From Escherichia phage chee24: a stretch of 64,000 nt of DNA. Made by a program: the position numbers and the translations under genes. Location of the stretch: the sequence record NC_047885.1; one strand, 5' to 3'. The notes below the pieces were generated by a model. The model saw only the letters and a program-made list of their open reading frames with translations. It made no database searches and was not told the origin of the DNA. Shown one piece after another: positions 27,395 through 56,159 of this stretch. How positions within the stretch are numbered: position 1 is the stretch's first letter; each line of letters begins with the position of its first letter.

Positions 27395-27763
27395 TTACAT
27401 CGCCTGAGTAAATGTACGACTAATAACGTCGTTCTGCTGTTCACGCGTCAGTGAGTTAAAACGTACAGCATACCCTGAAACACGGATAGTTAATTGAGGG
27501 TATTTTTCAGGATGTTTCTGTGCATCCAAAAGCTGATCACGACTTAACACATTGACATTTAGGTGCTGACCTCCCTCGATTTGAGGAACTACTTCCACCT
27601 TGACTTCACGGAAGGATTCGGGGTCAAAATGTGGTGTGATACCTTCTAGATCCTCAACTAGAACTTTTTGTTTAAGTTCACCATCTTTAGAGTACAGTTG
27701 AATAATCTGATTATCATGAACAAGATTAATTACGCCAGACTTAAGATTTTGATATGCTTTCAT
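27395..27763 (-). CDS. grcA: autonomous glycyl radical cofactor (GrcA/YfiD-like)
   Basis: 122 aa; C-terminus [11 protein letters not shown]...[32 protein letters not shown] closely matches GrcA as recalled, including the RVSGYA glycyl-radical motif. Confidence 0.8.
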
Positions 27764-27805
27764 TAGCTCTCCCCGATGTTAGAAATTGGCTCAGCTCTTT
27801 ATTCT

Positions 27806-28000
27806 TTATAGTTTACCACGATATACAGAAACTGTCTTACCAGTTTGGTTCATAACGTATGCTACTTCATCTTCTTTTAAGAAGATTGCTTGATCTATTC
27901 CAGAAATAGCTATGCTTTTATTTCTGGGATTAAACCCTACGCTTTTACCAACATGAATCTGCTCACCACCATCAGTGGACATTATTTTAACTGTTAACAT
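27806..28000 (-). CDS. hypothetical protein (64 aa)
   Basis: ORF. Confidence 0.4.
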   Translation of the reverse strand: MLTVKIMSTDGGEQIHVGKSVGFNPRNKSIAISGIDQAIFLKEDEVAYVMNQTGKTVSVYRGKL

Positions 28001-28027
28001 AATTGCTCCTATATTTAGCTATCTCTA

Positions 28028-28104
28028 GCTCTTTTAATGGTAGTTAGTAGTGGATTTGAACCACTATAGTCGCTCCGTATGAAGGAGGTGCATAACCACT
28101 CTGC
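28028..28104 (-). tRNA. tRNA-Met (anticodon CAT; could be fMet, Met or Ile2-type)
   Basis: Hand-folded cloverleaf: 7-bp acceptor, T-loop GGTTCAAATCC, anticodon loop TTCATAC, encoded CCA. Confidence 0.7.
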
Positions 28105-28209
28105 CAACTAACTATTATGTTTTACTAGACTAAGTAAGTATTCTTTGTACTCTTTAGGCCAATTAGCTTTTTTAAACTTTCCTGGACGCATAGTCTTAAT
28201 TCCTAAATT

Positions 28210-28286
28210 TGGTACTCCGGGAGGGATTTAAACCCCCGATCTCTCGGTTATCAGCCGAGTGCTTTAGATCGCTAAGCTACCGAAGC
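28210..28286 (-). tRNA. tRNA-Ile (GAT)
   Basis: Hand-folded; anticodon loop CTGATAA; acceptor with G-U pairs; CCA encoded. Confidence 0.65.
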
Positions 28287-28287
28287 A

Positions 28288-28494
28288 TTAATATTTGGTT
28301 GCAGAACGTTTACCATTTCTAGGCGCACCGGGAAGTCGGGCACATTCCGCCATTTTTCTTTTTATTTTGCGGATGTTTTCAGGTGTTTGATCTTCTGGTT
28401 TTAGGCCAGATACATTACACCATAGTTTACCCTCCCATGCTGTAATGATCATTACGCCGTTACACATAATCTTTTCTGTAAAAGAAATTCTCAT
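28288..28494 (-). CDS. hypothetical protein (68 aa)
   Basis: ORF between tRNA genes. Confidence 0.4.
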   Translation of the reverse strand: MRISFTEKIMCNGVMIITAWEGKLWCNVSGLKPEDQTPENIRKIKRKMAECARLPGAPRNGKRSATKY

Positions 28495-28787
28495 TATCGT
28501 ATCTCGTTTAGGTAAGAAGTATAATGGAATTTAGCTTCTCCAGTCTTATCTATTTCTACCTCAGTTCGTGGTACTTGACGAACTACATCATGAATCATCT
28601 TATAGCGAATGCCTTTAGCTGGTTCATGATCTTTTGGAAATACCTGTTTAACCGTTACTACTTTATACTCTTCACGCGGTGTTAACACAACTACTTGATC
28701 ACCTTCTTTGATTTTCCAAGAAGATGGAAATTCATAGGTATATCTTTGGCCACCAGTTTGGAATACTACAGAAAGATAACGCTTCAT
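28494..28787 (-). CDS. hypothetical protein (97 aa)
   Basis: ORF preceded by promoter at 28818-28846. Confidence 0.5.
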   Translation of the reverse strand: MKRYLSVVFQTGGQRYTYEFPSSWKIKEGDQVVVLTPREEYKVVTVKQVFPKDHEPAKGIRYKMIHDVVRQVPRTEVEIDKTGEAKFHYTSYLNEIR

Positions 28788-28817
28788 TTGGTTTCCCTCC
28801 CATTAATTTATATAAAT

Positions 28818-28846
28818 ATTATAACAAGAAATAAGAGAGAAGGCAA
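28818..28846 (-). promoter_or_regulatory. sigma70-type early promoter (-35 TTGCCT, -10 TATAAT)
   Basis: ATTATA-N17-AGGCAA; same 27-nt conserved core. Confidence 0.55.
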
Positions 28847-28861
28847 ATGAATTTTTAAATT

Positions 28862-28936
28862 TGGTGCTCCCACCAGGAATCGAACCCGGTTCAGATGCTT
28901 ACAAGGCAACTGCATCGCCAGCAATGCTTTAGGAGC
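28862..28936 (-). tRNA. tRNA-Thr (TGT)
   Basis: Hand-folded; T-loop GGTTCGATTCC; anticodon loop CTTGTAA. Confidence 0.65.
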
Positions 28937-29103
28937 GATAATCCCATTATTTCAATGGGATTTCTTTTTCAAATACAGGGGATTTATCTGACATTACTGT
29001 CATTGCCAACTGCTGAAGAAACTCGAAAGTTAGCTTTAAACGTTCTTCGCCTAATTCAATCTCAACGTATTTCTTTTGTTTGTCAACCTTTAATTTTAGG
29101 TTA

Positions 29104-29325
29104 TCAGCCATCTTCGGATTCTCGTTGCTTGGCTACTGCTAGCCAGTCTGGTAAAAGAAACTTAGTACGAAACTCTTCATACGTTTCTTCTGGGTAAAAG
29201 CTAAAACCTCCTTTCTCATCATTCAAGATAACAGAGCCGTCAGTTTGTTCATAAGCTCGGTATGTTTCCCCAATAATGATAACTCGTTTATCGGTACTTT
29301 TATTACGAAACTCAAAAACGTGCAT
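29104..29325 (-). CDS. hypothetical protein (73 aa)
   Basis: ORF between tRNA genes. Confidence 0.4.
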   Translation of the reverse strand: MHVFEFRNKSTDKRVIIIGETYRAYEQTDGSVILNDEKGGFSFYPEETYEEFRTKFLLPDWLAVAKQRESEDG

Positions 29326-29339
29326 AGAGATTCCTTATT

Positions 29340-29414
29340 TGGTGCGGGATACGAGAGTCGAACTCGTGTCTACTGGTTGGAAGCCAGTTATTCTAACCAC
29401 TGAACTAATCACGC
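29340..29414 (-). tRNA. tRNA-Gly (TCC)
   Basis: Hand-folded; anticodon arm ACTGG-CTTCCAA-CCAGT; T-loop TTCGACT. Confidence 0.65.
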
Positions 29415-29421
29415 ATTAATT

Positions 29422-29497
29422 TGGCTGGAGAAGGAGGAATCGAACCTACCATTAACGGAGTCAAAGGCCGTTGTGCTAACCGTTACACTACTCTCCA
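29422..29497 (-). tRNA. tRNA-Gln (TTG)
   Basis: Hand-folded; anticodon loop CTTTGAC; T-loop TTCGATT. Confidence 0.6.
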
Positions 29498-29503
29498 ATA
29501 ATT

Positions 29504-29579
29504 TGGCTGGGATGCCACGGATCGAACGTGGAACCTTCGGAGTCAGAGGCCGACGATCTGCCAATTGATCTACATCCCA
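29504..29579 (-). tRNA. tRNA-Gln (CTG)
   Basis: Hand-folded; anticodon loop CTCTGAC; perfect T-stem CCACG/CGTGG. Confidence 0.65.
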
Positions 29580-29592
29580 ATAATTCTTTACT

Positions 29593-29787
29593 CTACGGAA
29601 GTGGAGTAGTTGGCTCAGGTTCTTCAAGGCGCTTACCTTCATGATCTACTCGAATGACTCCGCATCCTTCGCAAACCACAACTGCACCATAACCTTCTTT
29701 GACTTCGGCTTCTGTAATCAGACCAGATAAGTCACCAGTATCTCTGCCCCACATATCAAGGGAGCATTGCTTGCAGAAATCAGCCAT
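29593..29787 (-). CDS. Cys-rich small protein (64 aa)
   Basis: ORF with CxxC..CxxC; between tRNA genes. Confidence 0.4.
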   Translation of the reverse strand: MADFCKQCSLDMWGRDTGDLSGLITEAEVKEGYGAVVVCEGCGVIRVDHEGKRLEEPEPTTPLP

Positions 29788-29811
29788 ATTTTATTTCCTA
29801 TTTAAGTTAAT

Positions 29812-29889
29812 TTGGGGTGGCTAGTGGAATTCGAATCCACATAGGCCTGATTCACAATCAGGATCATTAACCAATTATGATATAGCCAC
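29812..29889 (-). tRNA. tRNA-His (GTG)
   Basis: Hand-folded; anticodon arm CCTGA-TTGTGAA-TCAGG; extra 5' G typical of tRNA-His. Confidence 0.7.
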
Positions 29890-30117
29890 AATTGAAAACT
29901 CGCAGGGTTAGCGAAACCATCCTCAATTAGCATGTTCTAGAATACTAATCAAGTTATCTCCTATTGCACGCAGCTCAAGACGAGTACGAATTTTCAATTG
30001 TGGCGGCTCTCAGAAACTCTTCTATTCTAGCCCCAGAAGCTTACCCCCGAACGCATGTCGGGAAAGTCTTTCCAAGCGCATCAAATAGCACCGTTACACT
30101 TTGAGCCATTGATATAT

Positions 30118-30203
30118 CAAGGAACAGAAGGAGTTGAACCTTCACGAGATAGACCATTTATCTCAACCGCTTTTAAGGTATATTTCTAGGAGTGGATGTT
30201 CCT
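30118..30203 (-). other. tRNA-like element (perfect acceptor and T-arm, non-canonical D/anticodon region)
   Basis: Acceptor AGGAACA/TGTTCCT, T-arm GAAGG-TTCAACT-CCTTC, internal hairpin GAGATA..TATCTC; no standard anticodon loop found. Confidence 0.35.
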
Positions 30204-30257
30204 AGTAAACCTATTCGGCAGTCCCGTCTACCAATTCCGGCATATTCCAAGAATTTT

Positions 30258-30431
30258 TTATAAACCAGCAGAAGCCTCATTTAAAGCATCAACAATAGCT
30301 TCACGCTGGGTCATTCCGTACCCGGTGGAATCTAGGTGCGGCAAATAAGCCATCCACCCCTTATCTGTTTCATGAAGACATGCTTTAAATTTTTTACCAT
30401 CCTTCATTGTTACAGTAACTGTTTTGCTCAT
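30258..30431 (-). CDS. hypothetical small protein (57 aa)
   Basis: Hand-translated ORF with AAGGAAG RBS. Confidence 0.35.
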   Translation of the reverse strand: MSKTVTVTMKDGKKFKACLHETDKGWMAYLPHLDSTGYGMTQREAIVDALNEASAGL

Positions 30432-30451
30432 AAGACTTCCTTATAGTTAAT

Positions 30452-30541
30452 TGGCAGAAGATAATGGAGTCGAACCATCACCGTATCACTACAGCGGGCT
30501 GGTTTTCAAGACCAGTTACGTACCACTACGTCCTATCTTCT
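30452..30541 (-). tRNA. tRNA-Ser (TGA), class II
   Basis: 90 nt; anticodon arm CTGGT-CTTGAAA-ACCAG; long variable arm. Confidence 0.65.
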
Positions 30542-30554
30542 AGTATTTATTATA

Positions 30555-30902
30555 CTAATAGTCACTCGTACTAGTGAAATCTTCTACTTTTCCACAAATT
30601 TTACAAGTCCTACGATGATAGTAGGTAATTTTTACTTTAGACCAGCCATCGTGATCATTACCTAGGTTTTCTGTTACTCCCCAAGTATGGGAACACTCAT
30701 TTTCAATTTGCTTAGTAAGAGCGTTATAGCGAGTATAAAACTCCTCCTGGGCAATAGCAAACTCTTTCTGTAGTTTATCACGAGCAATAATAGCACGTTC
30801 CAGATATGTTAAATCGGGCATTCCAGCTTTTTCAGCAGCATCTATAACCTTATCTTCATCTAAAGATGCTAAAAACTCTAGAGCTTTATCTTTTGCTAAC
30901 AT
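30555..30902 (-). CDS. hypothetical protein (115 aa)
   Basis: ORF. Confidence 0.5.
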   Translation of the reverse strand: MLAKDKALEFLASLDEDKVIDAAEKAGMPDLTYLERAIIARDKLQKEFAIAQEEFYTRYNALTKQIENECSHTWGVTENLGNDHDGWSKVKITYYHRRTCKICGKVEDFTSTSDY

Positions 30903-30924
30903 TATTATTATTACCTCAAGTGTT

Positions 30925-31015
30925 TGGCGGAAGAGGAGAGATTTGAACTCTCAAGCCGTTTTACCAGTCAGCCACTTTCCAAGCGGTTTTCGTCGCCAAT
31001 TCGATTTGCTCTTCC
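30925..31015 (-). tRNA. tRNA-Ser (GGA), class II
   Basis: 91 nt; perfect T-arm GAGAG-TTCAAAT-CTCTC; anticodon loop TTGGAAA; long variable arm; resembles E. coli tRNA-Ser architecture. Confidence 0.55.
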
Positions 31016-31127
31016 AATAATAAGATGATGCCTCTATCACGCCAGACAGTTACGCCTCGCTGGGATTCGAACCCATTAAAACAGCTCAACCGAGATAGTA
31101 GGTTTAATTTACTCTGACCATCAAATT

Positions 31128-31204
31128 TGGTGCGTGACAAGGGATTCGAACCCTCAAAACCCGACTTCTAAGGACGGTATGTATGCCAATTCCATCAATC
31201 ACGC
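31128..31204 (-). tRNA. tRNA with anticodon TAG (Leu-type anticodon, class I shape)
   Basis: 77 nt; 7-bp acceptor, T-loop TTCGAAT, anticodon loop CTTAGAA, discriminator A; short variable arm. Confidence 0.5.
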
Positions 31205-31209
31205 GTATT

Positions 31210-31288
31210 TGGTGGAGGATAACGAATTCGAATCGTTCTGATGTCCTCGGTGCAAGCGAGGTGTCCACTCCCAGCAGACCCATCCCCC
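31210..31288 (-). tRNA. tRNA-Ala (TGC)
   Basis: Hand-folded; anticodon arm CCTCG-CTTGCAC-CGAGG; G3-U70 pair in acceptor stem. Confidence 0.65.
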
Positions 31289-31546
31289 AAAATCTTTAGT
31301 TTACTAAGGCTATTAGCTCGGCGTAACTACAGCACCTTCGCTTCGAGCGGAAGGAACTGCGTCATCTCGCAAACCCGATACACTATTCAGTTGCCATGAA
31401 TCTAGTGGACTAATCTAGAACTTCTCCCAAATCGTAGGGATCGTGCTTTTTGGCAGCCAGTCCTAGGTCGAGCTAATACCTTAGTGAACTATGATGAGGA
31501 TTTCTCCCCATCAATTTATATAAATATTATAACAAGAAATTAAGCA

Positions 31547-31906
31547 TTAAGCAAGTACATTTTTGCAGATTTCTTGTAATTCCTTTACATCACGAACGTA
31601 AAGGTAGTCTGAACTTCCAGAGTGCATACTTTGCATAAACACACCCTCATCTGGCGCAGTATCCTTCAGAGTAATTCCTAACCAAAAAGCGGCAAAACGA
31701 GGTGTTACCTCACCTTGACTTGCCTTGAATACATCGGCTTCTGTGATCTCCTGACCAGTAGAAAGTCCCATATACGGTACGTTCAGATCAATATCTTTGT
31801 AGAATTCAGCTAGGTCTTGTTCGAAGTCCCAACCTTTAGAGATAGCGAACTCTATTGTTACATGACCGAAATAGCCTTGAACCTTGCTTGATAATTGCAT
31901 TTGCAA
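31547..31906 (-). CDS. hypothetical protein (119 aa)
   Basis: ORF. Confidence 0.5.
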   Translation of the reverse strand: MQMQLSSKVQGYFGHVTIEFAISKGWDFEQDLAEFYKDIDLNVPYMGLSTGQEITEADVFKASQGEVTPRFAAFWLGITLKDTAPDEGVFMQSMHSGSSDYLYVRDVKELQEICKNVLA

Positions 31907-31925
31907 TTCCTTATTTTGAGTTAAT

Positions 31926-31999
31926 TGGTACTCGGTGATAGAATCGAACTATCGCAACCGCCGTGTAAAGACGGGGTTCTCCCATTAAACTAACCGAGC
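31926..31999 (-). tRNA. tRNA-Val (TAC)
   Basis: Hand-folded; perfect T-arm GATAG-TTCGATT-CTATC; anticodon loop TTTACAC. Confidence 0.6.
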
Positions 32000-32132
32000 A
32001 AAAGATTTGCTACTAAAAATGCTTCGAACAGAAATTCACAAAATCCCGCTAAAAACATACCTATTGTAAAATCGGCAGAAAATACATAGGAATCTTTTAT
32101 TTTCTGCTTCATTAAGTAAAACCAGATAGTCA

Positions 32133-32450
32133 TTAAAATCTCTCCATTCTAAAGCCAATGAAGTAAGGTGCATTACACGGAACATGCTTAAGATCTTTAA
32201 GAGTAATTTTACGTCCTAAGCGTCGTTCCATACAAGTGAAACATAGAACAATATCTTTGGGCTGCTCTTTTCTTATCTGATCCCAGACCCAATCTTCAAC
32301 CATACACATTTCATGGTATTGTTCACAGTCTCGACAATAATGACACTGATGTTCTGGTACTTTTTGATTTTTAATACACAGTTCAGTAAAGCGTTTTCCG
32401 GCTCTGCCAGACATTTCTGATATTGTTTCTAGAACTTTGTTAATATTCAT
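32133..32450 (-). CDS. Cys/His-rich protein (105 aa)
   Basis: ORF with several Cys/His clusters. Confidence 0.45.
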   Translation of the reverse strand: MNINKVLETISEMSGRAGKRFTELCIKNQKVPEHQCHYCRDCEQYHEMCMVEDWVWDQIRKEQPKDIVLCFTCMERRLGRKITLKDLKHVPCNAPYFIGFRMERF

Positions 32451-32467
32451 AACAAATTCCTTTAAAT

Positions 32468-32546
32468 TGGTAGATCGCCTGGGACTCGAACCCAGAACCT
32501 TCCGATTAAAAGTCGGATGCTACTAAACCTATTGAGCTAGCGACCT
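32468..32546 (-). tRNA. tRNA-Lys (TTT)
   Basis: Hand-folded; anticodon arm TCCGA-CTTTTAA-TCGGA; T-arm CTGGG-TTCGAGT-CCCAG. Confidence 0.7.
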
Positions 32547-32739
32547 ATTAGTAGCCATTATATACTTCTTTAATAGAATAGACTTTTAGGTAAGAATGAT
32601 TAATCCCAAACTCCGCCATTACTTCTTTTTCATTTTTTCCATAATGTGCAAGTAAGAATCTTGAGGTATTATTACCTAAACGTTTGTCACTTACTACTAA
32701 TCGAAATACTTTCATTTCGAAATCCTCTATTAAAAGGGA

Positions 32740-32813
32740 AGCGGGTGCAGGAATCGAACCTACCTCTTTCTAGCTTATGAGACTAGCGATCTCTACCAGA
32801 GATCTAACCCGCA
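32740..32813 (-). tRNA. tRNA-Met/Ile2 (CAT)
   Basis: Hand-folded; anticodon arm CTAGT-CTCATAA-GCTAG; CCA not encoded; acceptor register uncertain. Confidence 0.55.
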
Positions 32814-32819
32814 ATTGTT

Positions 32820-32895
32820 TGGTCAGTGCGGCAGGACTCGAACCTGCGACCCGAAGCATCCAAGGCTCCCACGCTACCAACTGCGCTACGCACTG
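32820..32895 (-). tRNA. tRNA-Pro (TGG)
   Basis: Hand-folded; perfect acceptor; D-arm GCGC-AGTTGGTA-GCGT; anticodon loop CTTGGAT. Confidence 0.7.
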
Positions 32896-33347
32896 TTAAT
32901 TTTGTTAACTCACTTTATAAGATATATTATACAGAGAATTAAGTAAAATAGCAAATGAATTTTTAATAAATTTACTTATTATGTAGGCCGCCTGGAGGCT
33001 ACCAACCCCACGGCTGACAAAGAAGTTTGCGAGACTTCTCTTAAAAGCCAGAATAGACCCGCCGGTCTATCGGAACCTACATAATAAGTAAACTTTATAG
33101 TGTCATTCTAGGCAGGACTCGAACCTGCTATCACTTGTGCGGACTTACGAGAACCATTCTTTCACTCGAATCGAACGAGCTTCTGCCCTCGCCAAGCTGG
33201 TTTCCCCCATCAACCACGCTAGAATGTTAGATTGTTTTCAGTGCAAGAGTCCGAGTCTTGGACACGACCGCTTCGCAAGTACATAGGCAGCTTATCATGA
33301 GTCAGCACTTCCGAATTGCTAGCTCCGTGTTCTGCACTGAAATTTTA

Positions 33348-33695: not shown

Positions 33696-33720
33696 AATAT
33701 ATTCTCATACTGAATTAATT

Positions 33721-48705: not shown

Positions 48706-49238
48706 TAATAAGTAACCAATTCCTGTACAAATCGCAGGCTGTTATCACTGTTTGCGCCAACTGCATAGACTAATCGAGTGGATTCATAGTTATAATCCAG
48801 TATCATACTATCTAGGTATGTATCTGCCTCTAGCTTCTGTTCGCTAAAGATTGTAGATACAAAAGCACTTTCAATATGCCCATGTTGGTACATTTCTAGA
48901 AGAAGATTAGCTCCACCTAGAACTACTGTTTGCTGATCTTTTAGAAAAGTAGGTAATGTATCACCTATCATTGATATGGGAGTGTAAATATCGTGTGTAA
49001 TATCATCTGGCAGTGGACGATCAGCACGAATAAATAGGTCAGAAGCTCCAATCATACGTTCCCTAACGGCGTATGGAAGAGCTAAATAAGTACCTGCCCC
49101 AATAATAATATTATCAGGATTTAGTACATCTAATTGTGAATAAAAAGCATCTAGTTCTTCTTTAAAAGAACCCCAGGGAAGCTTACCTCGGAGGCCGAAC
49201 TCCCCATTCGGCCCAACTGCATACATTGCTGTAATCAT
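48705..49238 (-). CDS. dihydrofolate reductase
   Basis: 177 aa; DHFR-like GKLPW and VLGGANLL motifs; between thyA and nrdB. Confidence 0.7.
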   Translation of the reverse strand: MITAMYAVGPNGEFGLRGKLPWGSFKEELDAFYSQLDVLNPDNIIIGAGTYLALPYAVRERMIGASDLFIRADRPLPDDITHDIYTPISMIGDTLPTFLKDQQTVVLGGANLLLEMYQHGHIESAFVSTIFSEQKLEADTYLDSMILDYNYESTRLVYAVGANSDNSLRFVQELVTY

Positions 49239-50380
49239 AGGAAATCTCCAAATTCATTGCCCAGATCTTTCAGAGTATCAGTAGAGGTCTCAGTTACCTG
49301 ACCTACACGGTAAGCTGCACCAATCTGGATTTCTTGTGGAGCAGGCTGTAGAGAAGTAGTATCCAACCAGTTCATGATCCACGGAATAGGGTTTTTGGTG
49401 ATTACTGGTAAGTGACTAGGCCATTCTACACCAATGTGCATAAATGCGTTACGTCCCACAAAGTACAAGTATTCTTCTAGAAGTTCTGCATTCAAACCAA
49501 TCAGACTACGACCTTTGAAGATGAAATGACCCCATTCAATTTCAGTTTTCAGAGTTTTCAGGAGCTGTGCTGGTGCTTTAGCCACTGCTTCATCTACCAG
49601 ATCTTTGTCAAACTGCTGGAACATAATCTGGATGATTGTTTTAGACATCTGAGTATGTAGGGCTTCATCTTTAGCAATCAATTGCAGATTTTTAGCAATA
49701 CCTTGCAGAATATCGTTCTCTGCTAACGCAAAGGTACATGCAAAGGATGCGTAGAACTGCATTGCTTCCAGACCGTAGATTGCAAAATAAGCATCTAACA
49801 GTTTAGCCTGAGTTTCACGCTTAACTTCAGGGAACTCAGTTTCTGGATATGTATTGTCACCACGATGATCACGTACTGCAATGAAATACTGACCTAACTG
49901 GTACAGTTCATCAAACAGTTCAACAGAATCTGCGATACGTGCAAATGCTTCTTGGTTTTTAGTTACAGAATCAATAAATTCTGCCGGATCAGTCAGCACA
50001 TTACGGATAATGTTGCTATACGCACGGCTATGCAGGTCTTCGAAGTAGCTCCACTGTTTTAGCATTCCTTCCAGTTCAGGGCGGCTTACAAGCGGCATAA
50101 TAGCTGCTTCAGGCGCTCGACTGATAAAGGAATCAGTTTGAGTCTGCCATGCTAAGTTCAGGAGTGTAATTTCCTGAATTTCACGTGGGAGGTTAGGCCA
50201 TTGTTTCTTATCTGCTTCCAGACTGATTTCAGTTTCAGTCCAAAATTGAGAGCGTTGCAGAAGTGCCAGACGCTCTAATTCTGGATGTGCTACACGTACA
50301 TAATCTGCGATACCTAGAGAATCGCCCAGGAAAAGATCAGCGTTAGTATGATCCCAATTCAGGTTTAGTAAAGTAGTCAT
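49235..50380 (-). CDS. nrdB: ribonucleotide reductase class Ia small subunit
   Basis: 381 aa; ferritin-like R2 fold; adjacent to nrdA. Confidence 0.85.
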   Translation of the reverse strand: MTTLLNLNWDHTNADLFLGDSLGIADYVRVAHPELERLALLQRSQFWTETEISLEADKKQWPNLPREIQEITLLNLAWQTQTDSFISRAPEAAIMPLVSRPELEGMLKQWSYFEDLHSRAYSNIIRNVLTDPAEFIDSVTKNQEAFARIADSVELFDELYQLGQYFIAVRDHRGDNTYPETEFPEVKRETQAKLLDAYFAIYGLEAMQFYASFACTFALAENDILQGIAKNLQLIAKDEALHTQMSKTIIQIMFQQFDKDLVDEAVAKAPAQLLKTLKTEIEWGHFIFKGRSLIGLNAELLEEYLYFVGRNAFMHIGVEWPSHLPVITKNPIPWIMNWLDTTSLQPAPQEIQIGAAYRVGQVTETSTDTLKDLGNEFGDFL

Positions 50381-50487
50381 TGATTTTCCTCTTTCTCACT
50401 ATTTCAGGAATATTATAGCAAATCAGGTAGCGATTAGCAAGTAAAATTTCAAAGAAAAAGGAGACCCGAAGATCTCCTTGTTTTTTA

Positions 50488-52818
50488 TTATAACTGGCAA
50501 CCACCAGAAGCACAACCCGCTGCTTCTTCACCAGCTCCTCCACCATTCGCAGTGTTAAAGTTAGCATAATACCAAGTTTTTATACCGTACTTAACAGCAG
50601 TCATGAAATCACGAACTACTACTGGGCCAGGGATGATTTCATTCTCGAATTTAGAGTAATCATAATACATCTGGAAACTTGATGACTGATTCAAGAATTT
50701 TTGGTAAACGGCGTTCCACTTGATCCACTCAGTGCGATCAATATCATAGGCCAGTTTATAGCTCATGAGAGTATCCCAATCGGTTGCACCTGGAGCAATT
50801 GCAATTACTTTATTCACTGCACTACCCTTGATAGATACAATCTTACGAGGTGGCTCAATTGAGTTGGTAACACCCAATAGTACAGAAGAGCTTTCTCCCG
50901 GCATCTGCGCAGTCAGAACAGAGTTACGCATACCGTATTTCAGAATATCTGCACGCAGAGATTCCCAGTCCATTTCTAGACCTACGGATACCAGTTCATC
51001 AACAGTTTTCTTGTACGTGTCGATTACCAGAGTTCCTTTAGATGGTTTAGTACGATCGAACCATTCACATGCACCTTGCTCTTTGGCTAGACGTACAGAG
51101 GCTTTATGCAGGAAGTAAGACAGTTTTTCAGCCTCACGATGAATCCAGTTACGTGCTTCAACACCTTCGTAGGCCAAACCTTCCGCCGCCATTGCACCTG
51201 CTGCGTTCATCAGACCAATACCAACATTACGACGTTTCTTAGCCGTATATTCCATAGTTGGGAACGGATAATCCTGAATTTCAATGATGGTATCAACGAA
51301 TTTCAGAAGAATATAGCAAGTCTTTTCCCACTCAGCCAGAGATTCCATGCGTCCTAGTACAACACCACCTAAGTTACACAGAGATACTTCCCCAATATCC
51401 TCCGGCTTCATTTGATCAAGTTGTTCTTTTGTTTTATACAGCTCTGTAATGTGGTGGAATGGGCGTGTAGGCTGAGTAATTTCAACACAAAGGTTTGTCA
51501 TACGGATTGGATCAAGGAAGTTACCGTGACGATTAGATTCCCCGATGTGGTGCGCATACATACGTCCTGTTTCCATTCGGATACGTAGCCAGGTATCTAG
51601 GATTTCTTTTGCAGAGACTTTAGGAGCTGCTGGAACTGTTTTTCCTTCGTGGTCGATCTTTGTAAGAGATGCCACACGTTTCTCCGCTGCCACATAAATT
51701 TCTTCAAATTTAGCCTCGTCATCACTATAAAACGCTTCATGAACTTCTGGAGCATAGAAGTATGACATTAGCGTAATATCTTCATTTTTCAGATAACGTT
51801 TTAACAAAAGATTGTTGAAGCTCAGAGAATAATCCATCTTATCGATTTTATTCTCGTCTGTAGCACGTTGTTGCTTAACCTGCATCAACTGGATGATTTC
51901 AGGGTCAAAGTAAGGATAGGATACAGTAGCAGAACCACCACGAGTTTGCTGAGTATTAGCCTTTACTGATCGGTCAATGTGTCGATAATATGGCAGTTTT
52001 CCGGAATGCGGGAATGCCCCATTTCGCACCGGATCAGCAATTGATCGGCTTTCAAGATGATACCCGATTCCCGCTCTGGCTGCGACCATTTTAAAAACGA
52101 TGTGCTCGGCTGTGTCGATTGAATCCAATGTGTCAGTGGAATCAACGAGGCAACAACTAGCAAATCCACGATCACTAGAGCGCAAGCCAACCAATGGCGG
52201 CGTAGGAACGTTGATCTTGTGGAGCGACATTGCATTGTAGAGATCGATTGCATCTAGAATTGTCCAGTTAGGTTGAGATAACATCGCCATTGCCATACCC
52301 ATATAGGCGAATTGCGGAGTTTCGTAAATTTCTCCAGTTGCTATATTACGGCGAGAATACTTATCAAAGAATTGTTTCAGTCCTCCACTAGTGAAAAGAC
52401 GGTCACGATCATGGTCAATAACCTGATTCAAAGCCTCAAACTGCTCATCGGTAATCCATGCACTCATGTCTTCCCATGCACCTACACTAACCATATGATC
52501 ATGGAAGAAGCGTAGAGAAGGTGGTTCAAAGGAATCATAAAGGCGTTTACGCATCTGCGCAAGACGTAATTCCTTTGCTGGCACGTCGTATGCTGGATTA
52601 TCTTTGATAAGACTTTCAGCAGCCTTAATTAAAGCATCCATCAGAGTGTCGGAATCTACAACCCCTTTGGGCAGAGTTTTTTGAGCAGCCATAGTAATGG
52701 CTGACCAACTTACATCAACTGTTTTGCAACCATACTCCGCCCAACCATTGAGTTTTTCAGGAGCAAAGTCTTCTACAGTACCGTCACGTTTAATTACTTT
52801 TTCAATGCGATGGCTCAT
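50488..52818 (-). CDS. nrdA: ribonucleotide reductase class Ia large subunit
   Basis: Start at internal ATG (MSHRIEKVIKRDG, ATP-cone) with AAGGAAA RBS; track ORF extends to 52923; C-terminal Cys pair. Confidence 0.9.
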   Translation of the reverse strand: MSHRIEKVIKRDGTVEDFAPEKLNGWAEYGCKTVDVSWSAITMAAQKTLPKGVVDSDTLMDALIKAAESLIKDNPAYDVPAKELRLAQMRKRLYDSFEPPSLRFFHDHMVSVGAWEDMSAWITDEQFEALNQVIDHDRDRLFTSGGLKQFFDKYSRRNIATGEIYETPQFAYMGMAMAMLSQPNWTILDAIDLYNAMSLHKINVPTPPLVGLRSSDRGFASCCLVDSTDTLDSIDTAEHIVFKMVAARAGIGYHLESRSIADPVRNGAFPHSGKLPYYRHIDRSVKANTQQTRGGSATVSYPYFDPEIIQLMQVKQQRATDENKIDKMDYSLSFNNLLLKRYLKNEDITLMSYFYAPEVHEAFYSDDEAKFEEIYVAAEKRVASLTKIDHEGKTVPAAPKVSAKEILDTWLRIRMETGRMYAHHIGESNRHGNFLDPIRMTNLCVEITQPTRPFHHITELYKTKEQLDQMKPEDIGEVSLCNLGGVVLGRMESLAEWEKTCYILLKFVDTIIEIQDYPFPTMEYTAKKRRNVGIGLMNAAGAMAAEGLAYEGVEARNWIHREAEKLSYFLHKASVRLAKEQGACEWFDRTKPSKGTLVIDTYKKTVDELVSVGLEMDWESLRADILKYGMRNSVLTAQMPGESSSVLLGVTNSIEPPRKIVSIKGSAVNKVIAIAPGATDWDTLMSYKLAYDIDRTEWIKWNAVYQKFLNQSSSFQMYYDYSKFENEIIPGPVVVRDFMTAVKYGIKTWYYANFNTANGGGAGEEAAGCASGGCQL

Positions 52819-53161
52819 TTGGCTTTCCTTTTTATGGTTATCAGGATTTAAGGAATATTCTACTTTATTATTGGTCATTAGGCAAATAAAATTTTCTGAT
52901 AGAAAAGGCCCGAGTATTTTCATACCCAGGCCTTCTGTGTTGTCAGTCTAGTTTTTGGCCACTTAAGTTCTCAGCAGAATATCTATTGAGGTACTTAGTT
53001 CATTATAATTGAAGGGCCGATTTGGATTTGAGGTTACAATTTTCCACGCTAGGGTAGTCTTAGGACTTTCTTCCCCTTCCTTACGTGTAATCATATTAGC
53101 AGCACTCAGTGAAGTACGATGTATTTTAGTTTTACGGTGTAGATGTACAACGTCTCCCATA

Positions 53162-53923
53162 TTACACCTTCCCCATGTCTTTAAAAATATCGTAGAATGC
53201 TTTAGACTCAACAGAACGAACGTTATCAATCAATTCGATCATTGAGAATGGAGCATTTTCATATTTCTCATAAACTTCCATAAGAAGTGCTAGACCTGAG
53301 TCACCTTTAATGTCTTTCTGAGCTATATCCCCGCAGATAATTAAACGGCAGTCTTGTCCTACACGAGTTAGGAGACAAATCATTGCCTCAACGGAAATAT
53401 TCTGAGCTTCATCGACAATTACATAGGAGTTGTTGAAAGTTCTGCCACGAGCATGTTCTATAGCCAAAAATTTAATTTTCTGACGTTCGACATACCCCTT
53501 ATAGGCATGATCACCGATGGCCCATTTCATACCATCAGCTATTGGCTCTAACCAAGGCTCTAGCTTTTCTGCTAGATCACCAGGAAGCATACCAAGAGAC
53601 TTACCTAGAGGTTCATTAGGACGTACGAGGATCACTTGCTCAATATCTGAGTGAATGTCTACGAGTTCCTGAGCTGCAAGAACAGACGGGATAAAGGTTT
53701 TACCAGTACCTGGCTCACCAATACCCACAGTCACTGTGTTGTTCTTGATCATATTGATATATGATTTTTGCTCTCGGTTTTTACCTACTAGGGATTTAGC
53801 AACTGGGTTAGCGTAATCATTAGAAAAATCAGCCTGAATTACGTTATTCTCATATTTGTTGCCACGCTTTCTTGAACCATTGCGGTTCTCTCTTTTTTGA
53901 CGTGCTTTTCCCATAAATAACAC
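53162..53923 (-). CDS. phoH: PhoH-like ATPase
   Basis: 253 aa; Walker A GEPGTGKT and PhoH-like core. Confidence 0.8.
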   Translation of the reverse strand: MLFMGKARQKRENRNGSRKRGNKYENNVIQADFSNDYANPVAKSLVGKNREQKSYINMIKNNTVTVGIGEPGTGKTFIPSVLAAQELVDIHSDIEQVILVRPNEPLGKSLGMLPGDLAEKLEPWLEPIADGMKWAIGDHAYKGYVERQKIKFLAIEHARGRTFNNSYVIVDEAQNISVEAMICLLTRVGQDCRLIICGDIAQKDIKGDSGLALLMEVYEKYENAPFSMIELIDNVRSVESKAFYDIFKDMGKV

Positions 53924-54226
53924 TCCTATAGTGTACTTCGCTAACAGAGGATCAACAAAAAGATCTTGTTTATCAACTTACAAATATATTATACCAGTAT
54001 ATGCAGTAAAAAGCAACTACAATTTTAAATAAGCCTATGATATTGCATTTAAATAAAAAATTTGCTTGCTTTTAACGGGAAATGTATGGTATTAGATAAT
54101 CATTTTATACCGCGTACATAGGCGCGTGATTATACTATTTTAAGTACAAAATAGCAAATAAATTTTTTAACAATTTGCTAACCTTTTAGCACAGATCAAA
54201 ATACAATATCTAAGAGAAAAATTATA

Positions 54227-54255
54227 TTGACATTTGCCCTTGAATAAGCTATAAT
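54227..54255 (+). promoter_or_regulatory. consensus sigma70 promoter (TTGACA-N17-TATAAT) for nrdD
   Basis: Perfect -35 and -10 hexamers with 17-nt spacer, about 30 nt upstream of nrdD ATG. Confidence 0.75.
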
Positions 54256-54284
54256 AGTAGTCTTAGTTAGAGAAGGAGAGTATA

Positions 54285-56159
54285 ATGAATCGTAATGAAG
54301 AACTAAAGTATAAAGAAATGCAGGCGTTAATTAGAAACTGCAAAGAGATTATCGAAGGATCAGCAGATGAAGAGCTGCTGTTTAATAATGCCAATAAACC
54401 CTCAGAACGTTTCCCTACACAAAGGGATATGCTTGCAGGTGAATTGAGTAAGTATCTGATTCTAGAAGAAATGCCAATTCAGATTCGAAATGCTCATATG
54501 ATTGGGGATATTCATTTCCATGATGCTGATTATGCCGCGTTAGGCATGACTAACTGTTGTCTGGTAGCTCTGGAAGATATGTTGAAGAATGGTATGAAGG
54601 TTGGTAATGCTGAAATTAGCACTCCAAACTCTATCACTACTGCTGCTGCTATTACAGCTCAGATTATCACACAGGTTAGCTCCCATCAGTATGGTGGTAC
54701 TTCTGTAGACCGATTAGATGAAGTATTAGCCCCTTATGTTCGTAAGTCCTATGATAAAAATCATGCGTTTGCAAAACGTTGGACTAAGGATGAAGCCAAA
54801 GCATCCGTAATGGCTACGGAGATGACTGAAAAAGAAGTCTATGACGCTTGTCAGGGTTTAGAATATGAAATCAATACCATGTTCAACTCTAATGGTCAGA
54901 GTCCATTTATTACCTTTGGTTTTGGTCTAGGAACTTCTTGGGAAGCACGTCTAGTACAGAGGGCAATACTGAAAGTACGCATGGATGGTTTAGGTATCAA
55001 TAAACGTACAGCTATCTTTCCTAAACTGGTATTTGTACTTCGTGATGGCGTAAATATGAAACCAGGAGATGTTAATTATGACATCAAGAAGTTAGCTATG
55101 AAATGTACTGCTGAACGTATGTATCCAGATTATATCAGCTATGACAAAGTTGTAGAAGTTACTGGAGACTACAAAGTTTCTATGGGCTGCCGTTCATTCC
55201 TAGCTGCTGCAGAAGATGGTGAAACTGCTGGCCGTAATAACTTAGGTGTTGTTTCTGTAAACTTGCCTAGAATTGCTATCGAAGCTGAAGGAAATATTGA
55301 TCTATTCTTTGATTTGCTTGAGCTACGTGTGGATACAGCGTTAAAAGCATTGGAGTGGAGAGTTGATCGCTTAAAATACATCCAAGCTAAAGCTGCACCC
55401 ATCCTCTATATGTCAGGAGCCTTTGGGTTACGCTTGGAGCCTGATGAATATGTATTTGATCATTTTTATAACCGTGCTTCTGTATCTCTGGGGTATATTG
55501 GTTGCCATGAAATGCTACAGTTCATGTTTGGCAAAGATGTAGACACAATGTCCGAGACCTGCATCAAGTTTGTTCAGCGTGTATTGCAGTACATGCGGGA
55601 TAGAGTCGATCAGAAGAAGGAAGAAACTAAGTTAGGTTATAGCCTGTATGCTACACCATCAGAATCCCTATGTGACCGTTTTTGTCGTCTAGACCGTGAA
55701 TATTTCCCGGAGCATGAAGATATTCTGTCCAAAGGATACTACACTAACTCTCACCACCTTGATGTGGAACGTAAAGTTGCTCCTAACGTGAAATTTGATT
55801 ATGAATCTAATTTTACTCCAATTGCATCTGGTGGGTGTATTTCCTACGTGGAATTACCAGACATGAAACGATTCCCGGATGCACTGGAATGGGTTATTAA
55901 CTATGCTGCTAGTAAGGTTCATTACTTTGGTATTAATACTCCAGTGGATTCTTGTGGTAAATGTGGATTCTTGGGTGAGACAGTAGCATCCGAAGATGGA
56001 TTTAAGTGCCCTATCTGTGGTAATCATGACCCTGAAACTCTTGAAGTAACTCGTCGAGTTTGTGGGTATCTTGGAAATCCAGGCGCTCGTCCGTTTAACC
56101 CAGGCAAACAACATGAGGTTATGGGCAGGGTGAAACATCAGGATATTCGAGCTAAATAA
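54285..56159 (+). CDS. nrdD: anaerobic ribonucleoside-triphosphate reductase (class III)
   Basis: 624 aa; C-terminal Cys cluster and glycyl-radical motif RRVCGY; consensus promoter and RBS upstream. Confidence 0.85.
   Translation: MNRNEELKYKEMQALIRNCKEIIEGSADEELLFNNANKPSERFPTQRDMLAGELSKYLILEEMPIQIRNAHMIGDIHFHDADYAALGMTNCCLVALEDMLKNGMKVGNAEISTPNSITTAAAITAQIITQVSSHQYGGTSVDRLDEVLAPYVRKSYDKNHAFAKRWTKDEAKASVMATEMTEKEVYDACQGLEYEINTMFNSNGQSPFITFGFGLGTSWEARLVQRAILKVRMDGLGINKRTAIFPKLVFVLRDGVNMKPGDVNYDIKKLAMKCTAERMYPDYISYDKVVEVTGDYKVSMGCRSFLAAAEDGETAGRNNLGVVSVNLPRIAIEAEGNIDLFFDLLELRVDTALKALEWRVDRLKYIQAKAAPILYMSGAFGLRLEPDEYVFDHFYNRASVSLGYIGCHEMLQFMFGKDVDTMSETCIKFVQRVLQYMRDRVDQKKEETKLGYSLYATPSESLCDRFCRLDREYFPEHEDILSKGYYTNSHHLDVERKVAPNVKFDYESNFTPIASGGCISYVELPDMKRFPDALEWVINYAASKVHYFGINTPVDSCGKCGFLGETVASEDGFKCPICGNHDPETLEVTRRVCGYLGNPGARPFNPGKQHEVMGRVKHQDIRAK

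What the first reader, a model, noticed from the sequence alone, without database searches (positions are those of the whole stretch)
27395..56159. Two glycyl-radical proteins (GrcA-like and NrdD) with no activating enzyme in the window
The 122-aa GrcA-like ORF (27395-27763) keeps the RVSGYAVRF glycyl-radical motif, and NrdD (54285-56159) ends with RRVCGY. No radical-SAM activase (CxxxCxxC, NrdG/PflA-like) is present in these 64 kb. The phage may rely on host activases, which suggests adaptation to anaerobic gut growth.
Basis: partly seen in the sequence, partly recalled or inferred. Interest (0 to 1): 0.5.

Follow-up and report, generated by a model that had tools for sequence, protein, structure and literature searches.

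The report
T5-like phage borrows host radical activases
This T5-family phage carries two oxygen-sensitive glycyl-radical proteins (an anaerobic ribonucleotide reductase and a small spare part for the host's pyruvate formate-lyase) but no enzyme to switch them on, so it almost certainly uses the host's activating enzymes; this is a real but already documented feature of T5-like phages.

Summary
The window is the first 64 kb of a T5-like phage (Tequintavirus chee24; one base different from MF431732.1). ORF 27395-27763(-) is a 122-aa GrcA/YfiD-like glycyl-radical protein. ORF 54285-56159(+) is a complete class III ribonucleotide reductase, NrdD. I retrieved the other 56 kb of the genome and searched all 120.6 kb, and also the complete genomes of T5 and an Epseptimavirus. 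None encodes a radical-SAM activase. Both genes are under strong purifying selection (dN/dS 0.03-0.05) and keep every catalytic residue. nrdD has its own consensus promoter and terminator. Host nrdG and pflA occur in 5426 of 5426 complete E. coli genomes. Dependence on host activases is therefore the best explanation. For the GrcA-like protein there is direct precedent: T4 Y06I/Vs.6, 54% identical, is activated by E. coli PFL-activase. None of this is new. T5's 2005 record annotates both genes, and a 2013 survey noted nrdD-only phages, including the T5 group. The one literal CxxxCxxC motif lies in the 104-aa ORF next to grcA, which is a small Cys-His protein and not an activase. One extra lead: in several jumbo phages the GrcA-like gene lies inside RNR operons (nrdD-grcA-nrdG), which suggests a formate-supply link.

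The parts
27395..27763 (-). GrcA/YfiD-like autonomous glycyl-radical protein (122 aa). It is the homologue of T4 Vs.6/Y06I and of T5 AAX11991, 'putative formate acetyltransferase'.
   Evidence: ORF. Pfam Gly_radical 4.7e-18. 54% identical over its full length to T4 Vs.6; the C-terminal 61 aa are 82% identical to E. coli PflB 700-760 and 76% to GrcA. Best solved-structure matches are YfiD 6owr and PFL. dN/dS 0.03-0.05.
27458..27484 (-). RVSGYAVRF glycyl-radical motif (aa 94-102). The radical glycine is Gly97, codon 27473-27475.
   Evidence: The motif is invariant in 44 aligned GrcA-like proteins and identical to the PflB and GrcA motif.
54285..56159 (+). Class III (anaerobic) ribonucleoside-triphosphate reductase NrdD, 624 aa, with no ATP-cone.
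   Evidence: Pfam NRDD 3.9e-172. NCBIfam NF006732 844 bits, above the 657 cut-off. 52% identical to E. coli NrdD 87-705. PDB matches 9d3x and T4 1h78. dN/dS 0.029 at dS 0.74.
54552..54560 (+). NCC segment holding the active-site Cys that corresponds to T4 C79 and E. coli C175.
   Evidence: Alignment columns; coordinates.
55182..55199 (+). MGCRSF finger-loop segment. The Met and the thiyl-radical Cys correspond to E. coli M382/C384 and T4 C290, a signature of formate-dependent NrdD.
55953..56018 (+). Cys4 zinc ribbon (CGKC ... CPIC) of the C-terminal domain, the proposed contact surface for the activase.
   Evidence: All four Cys are conserved against E. coli C644/647/662/665. The role in NrdG contact was conjectured in PMC4493059.
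56052..56069 (+). RRVCGY glycyl-radical motif (aa 590-595). The radical glycine is Gly594, equivalent to T4 G580 and E. coli G681.
54227..54255 (+). Consensus sigma-70 promoter (TTGACA-17-TATAAT, 12 of 12 matches) 30 nt upstream of the nrdD start codon.
56167..56191 (+). Intrinsic terminator (10-bp stem followed by a T-run) 8 nt after the nrdD stop codon. It makes nrdD monocistronic, with no co-transcribed nrdG.
   Evidence: T5's record annotates a terminator at the same relative place.
49235..52923 (-). Context: class Ia (aerobic) ribonucleotide reductase genes nrdB (49235-50380) and nrdA (50488-52818 as annotated). They are the oxygen-requiring counterpart of NrdD.
   Evidence: Annotation of MF431732.1; ORFs.

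Best explanation
The phage encodes two glycyl-radical proteins that are switched on after translation by host radical-SAM activases already present in the infected cell.

(1) NrdD is a complete, formate-type class III ribonucleotide reductase. It is expressed from its own early promoter. Host NrdG, using SAM and reduced flavodoxin, abstracts a hydrogen from Gly594. The enzyme then makes dNTPs for phage DNA synthesis when oxygen is too low for the phage's class Ia NrdAB.

(2) The 122-aa GrcA-like protein is a 'spare part'. Host PflA (PFL-activase) puts a radical on Gly97. The small protein then docks onto host pyruvate formate-lyase whose own glycyl-radical domain was cut off by oxygen. That restores conversion of pyruvate to acetyl-CoA plus formate.

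Shown here: gene identity, intact catalytic residues, purifying selection, absence of any phage activase in three complete genomes, and presence of both host activases in every complete E. coli genome.

Inferred: that host NrdG accepts the phage NrdD, that host PflA accepts this particular GrcA variant, and that the two proteins are linked through formate, which PFL makes and NrdD uses as reductant.
For: - Identity and integrity. NrdD matches Pfam and NCBIfam above their cut-offs. All T4 and E. coli catalytic residues are present: C79/C175, C290/C384, M382, N311, G580/G681 and the Zn Cys4. The GrcA-like C-terminal half has 40 invariant columns, including RVSGYAVRF.
- In use. dN/dS is 0.029 for nrdD (dS 0.74) and 0.03-0.05 for the grcA-like gene. 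nrdD has a 12/12 consensus promoter and its own terminator.
- No phage activase. The complete genomes of this phage, T5 and mar003J3 were negative, with positive controls working.
- Host supply is reliable. nrdG and pflA are each in 5426 of 5426 complete E. coli genomes.
- Precedent. T4 Y06I (=Vs.6) is activated by E. coli PFL-AE and restores oxygen-cleaved PFL (PMC8683613 citing Wagner 2001). The protein here is 54% identical to Vs.6 along its whole length and shares the N-terminal MKAYQ.
- Formate link. The reductant of characterised class III RNRs is formate (PMC4493059). The Met/Cys signature is conserved. GrcA-like genes lie inside or beside RNR operons in six other phage contexts.
- Among the E. 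coli phages compared, T5-like NrdD has the most host-like C-terminal glycyl-radical domain: 63-64% identity, against 48% for T4, 56% for phAPEC8, 53% for Makalu003 and 35% for P54.
Against: - There is no experimental evidence that E. coli or Salmonella NrdG activates a T5-type NrdD. I found no paper that tests it.
- Phages such as T4 keep their own NrdG although the host has one, so host NrdG may not serve every phage NrdD.
- The test 'C-terminal domain more host-like than the core' does not separate phages with and without their own NrdG. phAPEC8 and Dax, which encode NrdG, show the same pattern, and the single comparisons are not significant (p about 0.06-0.1).
- The GrcA-like protein scores below NCBIfam's GrcA equivalog cut-off (122 < 170 bits), and its first ~50 residues do not resemble E. 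coli GrcA. The validated T4 protein also falls below that cut-off (153 bits).
- In this genome the two genes are 26.5 kb apart and not co-transcribed, so the formate link here rests on synteny in other phages.
Confidence: 0.75

Rival explanations
1. One or both genes are non-functional leftovers. Having lost (or never gained) an activase, NrdD and the GrcA-like protein can never carry a radical and do nothing for the phage.
For: No activase in the phage genome. Some T5 relatives have nrdD interrupted or flanked by homing endonuclease genes.
Against: dN/dS is 0.029 for nrdD across two genera at dS 0.74, and 0.03-0.05 for the grcA-like gene. Every catalytic residue is intact. The genes are full length in about 440 T5-like records. 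nrdD has a consensus promoter and a terminator.
Confidence: 0.05
2. The phage encodes an unrecognised, non-canonical activase. The obvious candidate is the 104-aa ORF 26999-27313(-), which carries CICSCWMC and lies immediately downstream of the GrcA-like gene.
For: It holds the only CxxxCxxC in an ORF-sized frame of the whole genome, it is adjacent to the grcA-like gene, and it is conserved in T5, VSe12 and mar003J3.
Against: It has no Radical_SAM, Fer4_12 or any other Pfam or NCBIfam hit. All 89 homologues are 58-121 aa, well below the 154-246 aa of NrdG and PflA. The invariant pattern is CSCxMC plus R-H-H, and the first Cys of the CxxxCxxC is lost in distant members. The family also occurs in Erwinia, Ralstonia, Rhizobium, Acinetobacter and Psychrobacter phages. 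It is absent next to T4 vs.6. The other Cys-cluster ORFs have no radical-SAM similarity either.
Confidence: 0.04
3. The GrcA-like protein is not a repair part. It is a decoy that titrates host PflA or blocks host PFL, redirecting host fermentation for the phage's benefit.
For: The N-terminal ~50 aa are phage-specific, shared with T4 Vs.6 and not with E. coli GrcA. It scores below the GrcA equivalog cut-off.
Against: The T4 homologue restores PFL activity in vitro. The C-terminal 61 aa are 82% identical to the PflB segment they would replace, with all contact residues invariant. A decoy would not need that conservation. Synteny with RNR genes fits a supply role.
Confidence: 0.08
4. NrdD is activated by a host glycyl-radical activase other than NrdG (for example PflA or another paralogue).
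For: Nothing direct. E. coli carries several such activases, and PflA is present in every genome.
Against: The NrdD glycyl loop and zinc ribbon are of the NrdD type and 63-71% identical to E. coli NrdD. The zinc domain is the proposed NrdG contact, and PFL lacks it. From general knowledge, activases are specific for their partner.
Confidence: 0.05

Closest known systems
Bacteriophage T4 Y06I (gene vs.6), a phage-encoded autonomous glycyl-radical cofactor
   Same: A small stand-alone protein of 120-122 aa with the same N-terminal start (MKAYQ). It is 54% identical over its full length and has an identical RVSGYAVRF motif. T4 encodes no PFL-type activase (it has only its RNR activase NrdG), so it too depends on host PFL-AE, as shown biochemically.
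   Different: The C-terminal 60 aa of T4 Vs.6 are identical to E. coli GrcA. The T5-like protein is closer to PflB itself (82%, against 76% to GrcA), and its residues 10-50 are more divergent. It has not been tested experimentally.
E. coli GrcA (YfiD), the spare part for oxygen-damaged pyruvate formate-lyase
   Same: The same glycyl-radical domain, 76% identical over 74 aa. It is the best solved-structure match by sequence and by fold (6owr).
   Different: The N-terminal ~50 aa are unrelated in sequence. The phage protein is below NCBIfam's GrcA equivalog cut-off (122 against 170 bits; E. coli GrcA scores 234). It is encoded by a lytic phage in a tRNA-rich early region, not under host regulation.
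Bacteriophage T4 NrdD/NrdG anaerobic ribonucleotide reductase
   Same: NrdD without an ATP-cone (~605-624 aa), about 48-50% identical, with all catalytic and zinc-site residues conserved.
   Different: T4 carries its own activase nrdG close to nrdD. T5-like phages have none anywhere in the genome. T4 nrdD has a group I intron, and this one is uninterrupted.
nrdD-only phages described by Dwivedi et al. 2013 (PMC3653736), including the T5/EPS7/SPC35 cluster
   Same: This is exactly that arrangement: nrdD plus nrdAB, phoH between them, and no nrdG (window annotation).
   Different: None in kind; this phage is another member. That paper did not discuss which enzyme activates NrdD and did not mention the GrcA-like gene.
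Vibrio phage Dax (Demerecviridae, Ermolyevavirinae)
   Same: It belongs to the same virus family and has NrdD plus a tRNA-rich region.
   Different: It encodes NrdG three genes downstream of nrdD, 57% identical to E. coli NrdG. Within the family, absence of nrdG was seen here only in the enterobacterial T5-like members examined (subfamily Markadamsvirinae).

Membership tests
Class III ribonucleotide reductase catalytic subunit (NrdD, formate-type) | NRDD domain scoring above curated family cut-offs | tested here: met
   Pfam PF13597 574 bits (cut-off 26); NCBIfam NF006732 844 bits (cut-off 657); TIGR02487 588 bits (cut-off 326).
Class III ribonucleotide reductase catalytic subunit (NrdD, formate-type) | C-terminal glycyl-radical motif RVCGY with the radical Gly (T4 G580 / E. 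coli G681) | tested here: met
   RRVCGY at aa 590-595; Gly594 aligns with G580/G681.
Class III ribonucleotide reductase catalytic subunit (NrdD, formate-type) | Finger-loop thiyl Cys, the second active-site Cys, and the Met that partners it in formate-dependent enzymes (E. coli C384, C175, M382) | tested here: met
   All three are conserved in the window, T5 and mar003J3 NrdD. The assignment of M382/C175 to formate chemistry comes from my knowledge of the E. coli enzyme literature.
Class III ribonucleotide reductase catalytic subunit (NrdD, formate-type) | Cys4 zinc ribbon in the C-terminal domain | tested here: met
   CGKC ... CPIC aligns with E. coli C644/647/662/665.
Class III ribonucleotide reductase system (NrdD + NrdG) | A cognate radical-SAM activase NrdG encoded by the same genome | tested here: not met
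   No NrdG in 120.6 kb, nor in T5 or mar003J3. nrdD is monocistronic. The system is therefore incomplete in the phage and must be completed by the host.
Class III ribonucleotide reductase system (NrdD + NrdG) | Glycyl radical formation and NTP reduction with formate | not testable with these tools
   Requires anaerobic biochemistry (EPR, activity assay).
GrcA/YfiD autonomous glycyl-radical cofactor (PFL spare part) | Small stand-alone protein consisting essentially of a PFL-type glycyl-radical domain with RVSGYAV | tested here: met
   122 aa; Pfam Gly_radical over aa 62-103; the motif is identical to PflB and GrcA and invariant in the family alignment.
GrcA/YfiD autonomous glycyl-radical cofactor (PFL spare part) | Score above NCBIfam TIGR04365 (equivalog) cut-off | tested here: not met
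   122 bits against a cut-off of 170. The experimentally validated T4 Vs.6 also fails (153 bits), while E. coli GrcA scores 234. The cut-off therefore delimits bacterial GrcA, not the function.
GrcA/YfiD autonomous glycyl-radical cofactor (PFL spare part) | Fold of the glycyl-radical domain as in YfiD and the PFL C-terminus | tested here: met
   The AlphaFold2 model (mean pLDDT 70) has a helix, a beta-hairpin with Gly97 at its tip, and a second helix. The best Foldseek matches are 6owr (E=3.7e-6) and PFL 2pfl/1cm5/1mzo. Confidence is moderate, and only the C-terminal ~60 aa are matched.
GrcA/YfiD autonomous glycyl-radical cofactor (PFL spare part) | Radical installed by PFL-activase, and rescue of oxygen-cleaved PFL | not testable with these tools
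   Shown only for E. coli YfiD and T4 Y06I.
Radical-SAM glycyl-radical activase (NrdG/PflA), considered for ORF 26999-27313 | Radical_SAM/Fer4_12 domain of about 150 aa or more, with a conserved CxxxCxxC cluster motif | tested here: not met
   No Pfam or NCBIfam hit. 104 aa, and all homologues are 58-121 aa. The first Cys of the motif is not conserved; the invariant pattern is CSCxMC.

The most novel reading that the evidence does not exclude
The two glycyl-radical proteins are not independent accessories. They form a coupled 'formate module' for making DNA precursors at low oxygen. The phage GrcA-like protein keeps host pyruvate formate-lyase running after oxygen damage, specifically to supply formate, the reductant that the phage's NrdD consumes. 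Both proteins draw on the host's pre-existing activase pool, because T5 destroys host DNA early in infection. The support is that GrcA-like genes with a PFL-type motif lie inside or beside ribonucleotide reductase operons in other phages: nrdD-grcA-nrdG in Salmonella phage SE_PL and a 44-kb metagenomic contig, nrdD-grcA-DUF4326-nrdG in a K64-1-like Klebsiella jumbo phage, and nrdA-nrdB-grcA in Vibrio phage D479. I did not find this linkage described in the searchable literature.
Probability: 0.35. Interest if true: 0.5.

Novelty: already known. Interest (0 to 1): 0.22.

Why it matters
It matters little as a discovery. Both genes were annotated in the original T5 genome record. Phage GrcA homologues that depend on host PFL-activase were demonstrated for T4 in 2001. 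Phages with nrdD but no nrdG, including the T5 group, were catalogued in 2013.

The practical point is that anaerobic replication of T5-like phages is predicted to depend on two host genes, nrdG and pflA. These phages are widely used in phage therapy and food-safety cocktails against E. coli and Salmonella. The prediction is easy to test with existing knockout strains and bears on phage efficacy in the oxygen-poor gut.

The side observation could explain why phages carry a spare part for PFL at all. GrcA-like genes are embedded in RNR operons of unrelated phages, which fits a role in keeping up the supply of formate for anaerobic dNTP synthesis.

Tried and rejected
(1) ORF 26999-27313 as a mini-activase. 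Rejected on size, lack of any radical-SAM similarity, a non-conserved first Cys, and its occurrence in phages of aerobic hosts.

(2) Other Cys-cluster ORFs anywhere in the genome (32133-32450, 19858-20274, 9610-10143, L003:5208-5645 and others). None has radical-SAM similarity.

(3) A remnant of nrdG downstream of nrdD. The two ORFs there (56222-56617, 56614-56844) match only PHROGs families of unknown function, and a terminator follows nrdD.

(4) The test that an NrdD relying on host NrdG should have a C-terminal domain more host-like than its core. T5-like NrdD shows this (63% against 52%) and T4 shows the opposite (48% against 60%). But phAPEC8 and Dax, which encode NrdG, also show C-terminus above core, and the individual Fisher tests give p = 0.06-0.11. 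The result is inconclusive.

(5) Literature on whether E. coli NrdG can activate T4 or T5 NrdD. Nothing was found in the searchable library, and Young 1994, Wagner 2001 and the T4 genome review are not held. My recollection that L. lactis and E. coli NrdD/NrdG cross-activate could not be verified and is not used.

(6) NCBIfam GrcA equivalog membership as a functional test. Rejected as a criterion because the validated T4 protein also fails it.

(7) I could not intersect the list of 2273 NrdG-positive phage records with the ~440 T5-like records, because the tool lists at most 60 rows. I checked three complete genomes from two genera instead.

Full report
**What the window is.** A 1.2-kb and a 5-kb piece of the window match five 'Bacteriophage T5-like' genomes from meat at 100% identity and in the same coordinates. 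About 440 T5-like phages of E. coli and Salmonella match at 80-99%. The window differs from MF431732.1 (pork29; Demerecviridae, Markadamsvirinae, Tequintavirus chee24) by one base in 64,000. It is the left 64 kb of a 120,622-bp linear genome with 9,968-bp terminal repeats.

**Check of the observation.**
- ORF 27395-27763 lies on the minus strand and encodes 122 aa. It matches Pfam Gly_radical at E=4.7e-18. RVSGYAVRF is at aa 94-102, with the radical glycine at Gly97.
- ORF 54285-56159(+) encodes 624 aa. It matches Pfam NRDD at E=3.9e-172 plus Gly_radical and exceeds the curated NCBIfam cut-offs for NrdD. RRVCGY is at aa 590-595, with 29 residues after it.
- Aligned with T4 and E. coli NrdD, every residue known to matter is present: the two active-site cysteines, the Asn, the radical Gly, the four zinc-ribbon cysteines and the Met next to the thiyl Cys. 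The protein lacks the N-terminal ATP-cone, as T4 NrdD does.
- In an alignment of 44 GrcA-like proteins from phages and bacteria, 40 columns of the C-terminal half are invariant.
- The motifs are therefore genuine and conserved.

**Is there an activase?**
- Within the window there is no NrdG- or PflA-like sequence.
- Over the whole genome, tblastn with E. coli NrdG and PflA gives nothing better than E=0.5.
- A profile built from four NrdG proteins (E. coli, T4, Vibrio phages VMJ710 and Dax) and a PflA phmmer search, both with filters off, were run against all six-frame segments of 40 aa or more. They give nothing better than E=0.54. The same PflA query picks out T4 NrdG at 3e-12, and the Vibrio phage NrdGs at about 1e-8.
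- A scan for CxxxCxxC and four related spacings finds one hit in a real ORF.
- Of 83 ORFs of unknown function of 110 aa or more, 33 have three or more cysteines. The ten annotated or otherwise plausible ORFs among them have no radical-SAM, Fer4_12 or Fer4_14 similarity.
- The complete genomes of T5 (AY587007) and of Epseptimavirus mar003J3 are equally negative.
- nrdD is a self-contained unit. A 12/12 consensus sigma-70 promoter ends 30 nt before the ATG, and a strong terminator begins 8 nt after the stop codon. T5's own annotation shows the same layout. No nrdG is co-transcribed.
- By contrast, Vibrio phage Dax, from the same virus family but a different subfamily, has NrdG three genes after NrdD. 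NrdG is found in 2273 phage records overall.

**The one CxxxCxxC.**
- T5 (ORF053) and VSe12 annotate it as a 104-aa protein. pork29's annotation truncates it to 43 aa, which removes the motif.
- It belongs to PHROGs family 4499, of unknown function, and has no Pfam or NCBIfam match.
- All 89 detectable relatives are 58-121 aa.
- The invariant features are an N-terminal basic R-x-x-x-R-H-H stretch and CSCxMC. The first Cys of the 'radical-SAM' spacing is lost in distant members.
- The family also occurs in phages of Erwinia, Ralstonia, Rhizobium, Acinetobacter and Psychrobacter. It is not next to vs.6 in T4.
- It is most likely a small zinc-binding, nucleic-acid-binding protein, and it is not an activase.

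**Are the genes in use?**
- Between this phage and mar003J3 (a different genus), nrdD has dS=0.74 but dN=0.022, so dN/dS is 0.029.
- The grcA-like gene has dN/dS of 0.03-0.05 against T5 and VSe12.
- Both are intact in hundreds of T5-like genomes.
- Selection this strong excludes the 'dead relic' reading.

**What the GrcA-like protein is.**
- It is 54% identical along its whole length to T4 Vs.6, with which it shares the N-terminal MKAYQ.
- Its last 61 residues are 82% identical to E. coli PflB 700-760 and 76% identical to E. coli GrcA.
- Vs.6 is the protein known in the literature as Y06I. That equation comes from my own knowledge; the 120-aa T4 sequence and its GrcA-identical C-terminus fit it.
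- According to PMC8683613, which cites Wagner et al. 2001, YfiD and T4 Y06I are the only validated 'spare part' proteins. PFL-activase installs the radical on them, and they restore activity to oxygen-cleaved PFL.
- T4 has no PFL-type activase of its own, so host dependence is already the accepted picture for the phage homologue.
- The T5-like protein falls below NCBIfam's GrcA equivalog cut-off (122 against 170 bits), but so does T4 Vs.6 (153 bits; E. coli GrcA scores 234).
- An AlphaFold2 model of moderate confidence (pLDDT 70) shows an N-terminal beta-sheet, then a helix, a hairpin with Gly97 at its tip, and a second helix. Its best structural matches are the YfiD NMR structure and PFL.

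**Host side.** nrdG and pflA are each present in 5426 of 5426 complete E. coli genomes. From established knowledge:
- T5 pre-early functions shut off host gene expression and degrade host DNA (the A1 gene is at 1574-3238).
- nrdDG is induced by FNR under anaerobiosis.
- PflA is made constitutively.
- Activases act catalytically.

I infer that the phage uses whatever NrdG and PflA protein is already in the cell. That supply is present exactly when an oxygen-sensitive reductase is useful.

**Did NrdD adapt to the host activase?**
- The C-terminal domain, including the zinc ribbon, has been proposed as the NrdG contact (PMC4493059).
- T5-like NrdD is 52% identical to E. coli NrdD in the core, 63-64% in the C-terminal 75 residues and 71% around the glycine. 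T4 NrdD shows the reverse: 60%, 48% and 50%.
- When I added more phages that encode their own NrdG, the pattern did not discriminate. phAPEC8 and Dax also have C-terminus above core, and the individual contrasts are not significant.
- What remains is that, among the E. coli phages compared, T5-like NrdD has the most host-like glycyl-radical domain. That is compatible with use of host NrdG but does not prove it.

**A link between the two proteins.**
- Characterised class III reductases take their reducing equivalents from formate. The Met/Cys signature of the E. coli enzyme is conserved here. In enterobacteria, PFL is the source of formate.
- In other phages, GrcA-like genes with the invariant PFL-type motif often sit in ribonucleotide reductase operons:
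  - nrdD-grcA-nrdG with a 4-nt overlap in Salmonella jumbo phage SE_PL;
  - nrdD-grcA-DUF4326-nrdG in a K64-1-like Klebsiella phage;
  - nrdD-grcA-nrdG on a 44-kb metagenomic contig;
  - within 4 kb of nrdD and nrdG on a 330-kb contig;
  - nrdA-nrdB-grcA in Vibrio phage D479;
  - divergent from nrdAB on a 73-kb contig.
- There is no such linkage in T4 (17 kb apart), in this phage (26.5 kb apart), or on one probably bacterial contig. In E. coli, grcA lies between eamB and ung.
- This recurrent synteny suggests that the phage spare part serves dNTP synthesis, most simply by keeping up the formate supply. I found no paper that makes this link. The sample is small and not corrected for relatedness.

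**Comparison with what is known, and verdict.**
- T5's 2005 GenBank record already lists 'nrdD' and 'putative formate acetyltransferase' at the homologous positions, and no nrdG.
- Dwivedi et al. 2013 state that many phages contain only nrdD together with nrdAB. [quoted passage not shown] That is exactly the layout here.
- Many deposited T5-like genomes annotate the small gene as 'autonomous glycyl radical cofactor GrcA'.
- What is still untested is the biochemical step of host NrdG acting on T5 NrdD. The formate-module idea is the only part with some novelty.

Noticed in passing
window 26999-27313 (-): A 104-aa ORF directly downstream of the GrcA-like gene carries the only ORF-sized CxxxCxxC of the genome (CICSCWMC, nt 27170-27193). 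It is a conserved small basic protein (T5 ORF053, PHROGs 4499) with invariant R-H-H and CSCxMC, and all homologues are 58-121 aa. It also occurs in Erwinia, Ralstonia, Rhizobium, Acinetobacter and Psychrobacter phages. It is probably a zinc-binding, nucleic-acid-binding protein of unknown function. The pork29 annotation truncates it to 43 aa (26999-27130), which loses the motif.
   Followed up: yes
L023:4177-6824 (Salmonella phage SE_PL); L024:3185-6163; L030:2185-4842; L028:1-4366; L026:1656-5372; L029:411-4378: GrcA-like genes with the PFL-type RVSGYAVRF motif are embedded in or adjacent to ribonucleotide reductase operons in other phages: nrdD-grcA-nrdG, nrdD-grcA-DUF4326-nrdG, nrdA-nrdB-grcA, and grcA divergent from nrdAB. 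This suggests a functional link between the PFL spare part and dNTP synthesis, possibly through formate supply. I did not find it described in the searchable literature.
   Followed up: partly
L009:3883-9483 (Vibrio phage Dax, Demerecviridae/Ermolyevavirinae): A member of the same virus family encodes NrdG (annotated 'hypothetical protein', 57% identical to E. coli NrdG) three genes downstream of a 724-aa NrdD. Within the family, lack of nrdG was seen here only in the enterobacterial T5-like members examined (subfamily Markadamsvirinae).
   Followed up: partly
window 27395-27763 (-) compared with L007:23547-23909 (T4 vs.6): The last 60 residues of T4 Vs.6 are identical to E. coli GrcA. The T5-like protein's C-terminus is instead closer to PflB (82%, ending TFTQAM like PflB's TFTQSM) than to GrcA (76%). 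Yet the two phage proteins share an N-terminal domain (MKAYQ...). This points to separate recombination or gene conversion with host grcA and pflB after a common phage origin.
   Followed up: no
window 19858-20274 (-): A 138-aa ORF with a CxCxCx6C cluster lies in a gap of the pork29 annotation, between P29_0035 and the endolysin gene. T5's record annotates a CDS of matching size in the corresponding place (ORF035). It has no Pfam match.
   Followed up: partly
window 54227-54255 (+) and 56167-56191 (+): nrdD is flanked by a perfect 12/12 sigma-70 consensus promoter and a strong intrinsic terminator, so it is an autonomous early transcription unit read by unmodified host RNA polymerase.
   Followed up: yes
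L012:3736-4422 (mar003J3); records KY677846, MK373796; L020:1404-4504 (phage nomo): In relatives, the nrdD locus is a hot spot for homing endonuclease genes. There is a Hef-like endonuclease between nrdD and the next ORF in mar003J3, an HNH gene in phiLLS, a split nrdD in HdH2, and a split nrdD in Vequintavirus nomo. The window's copy is uninterrupted.
   Followed up: no
window 56899-57738 (+) and 53162-53923 (-): nrdD is bracketed by a PhoH-like ATPase gene and a Sir2-family (NAD-dependent deacetylase-like) gene. Both are conserved in T5-like phages, so the region is a cluster of auxiliary metabolic genes.
   Followed up: no
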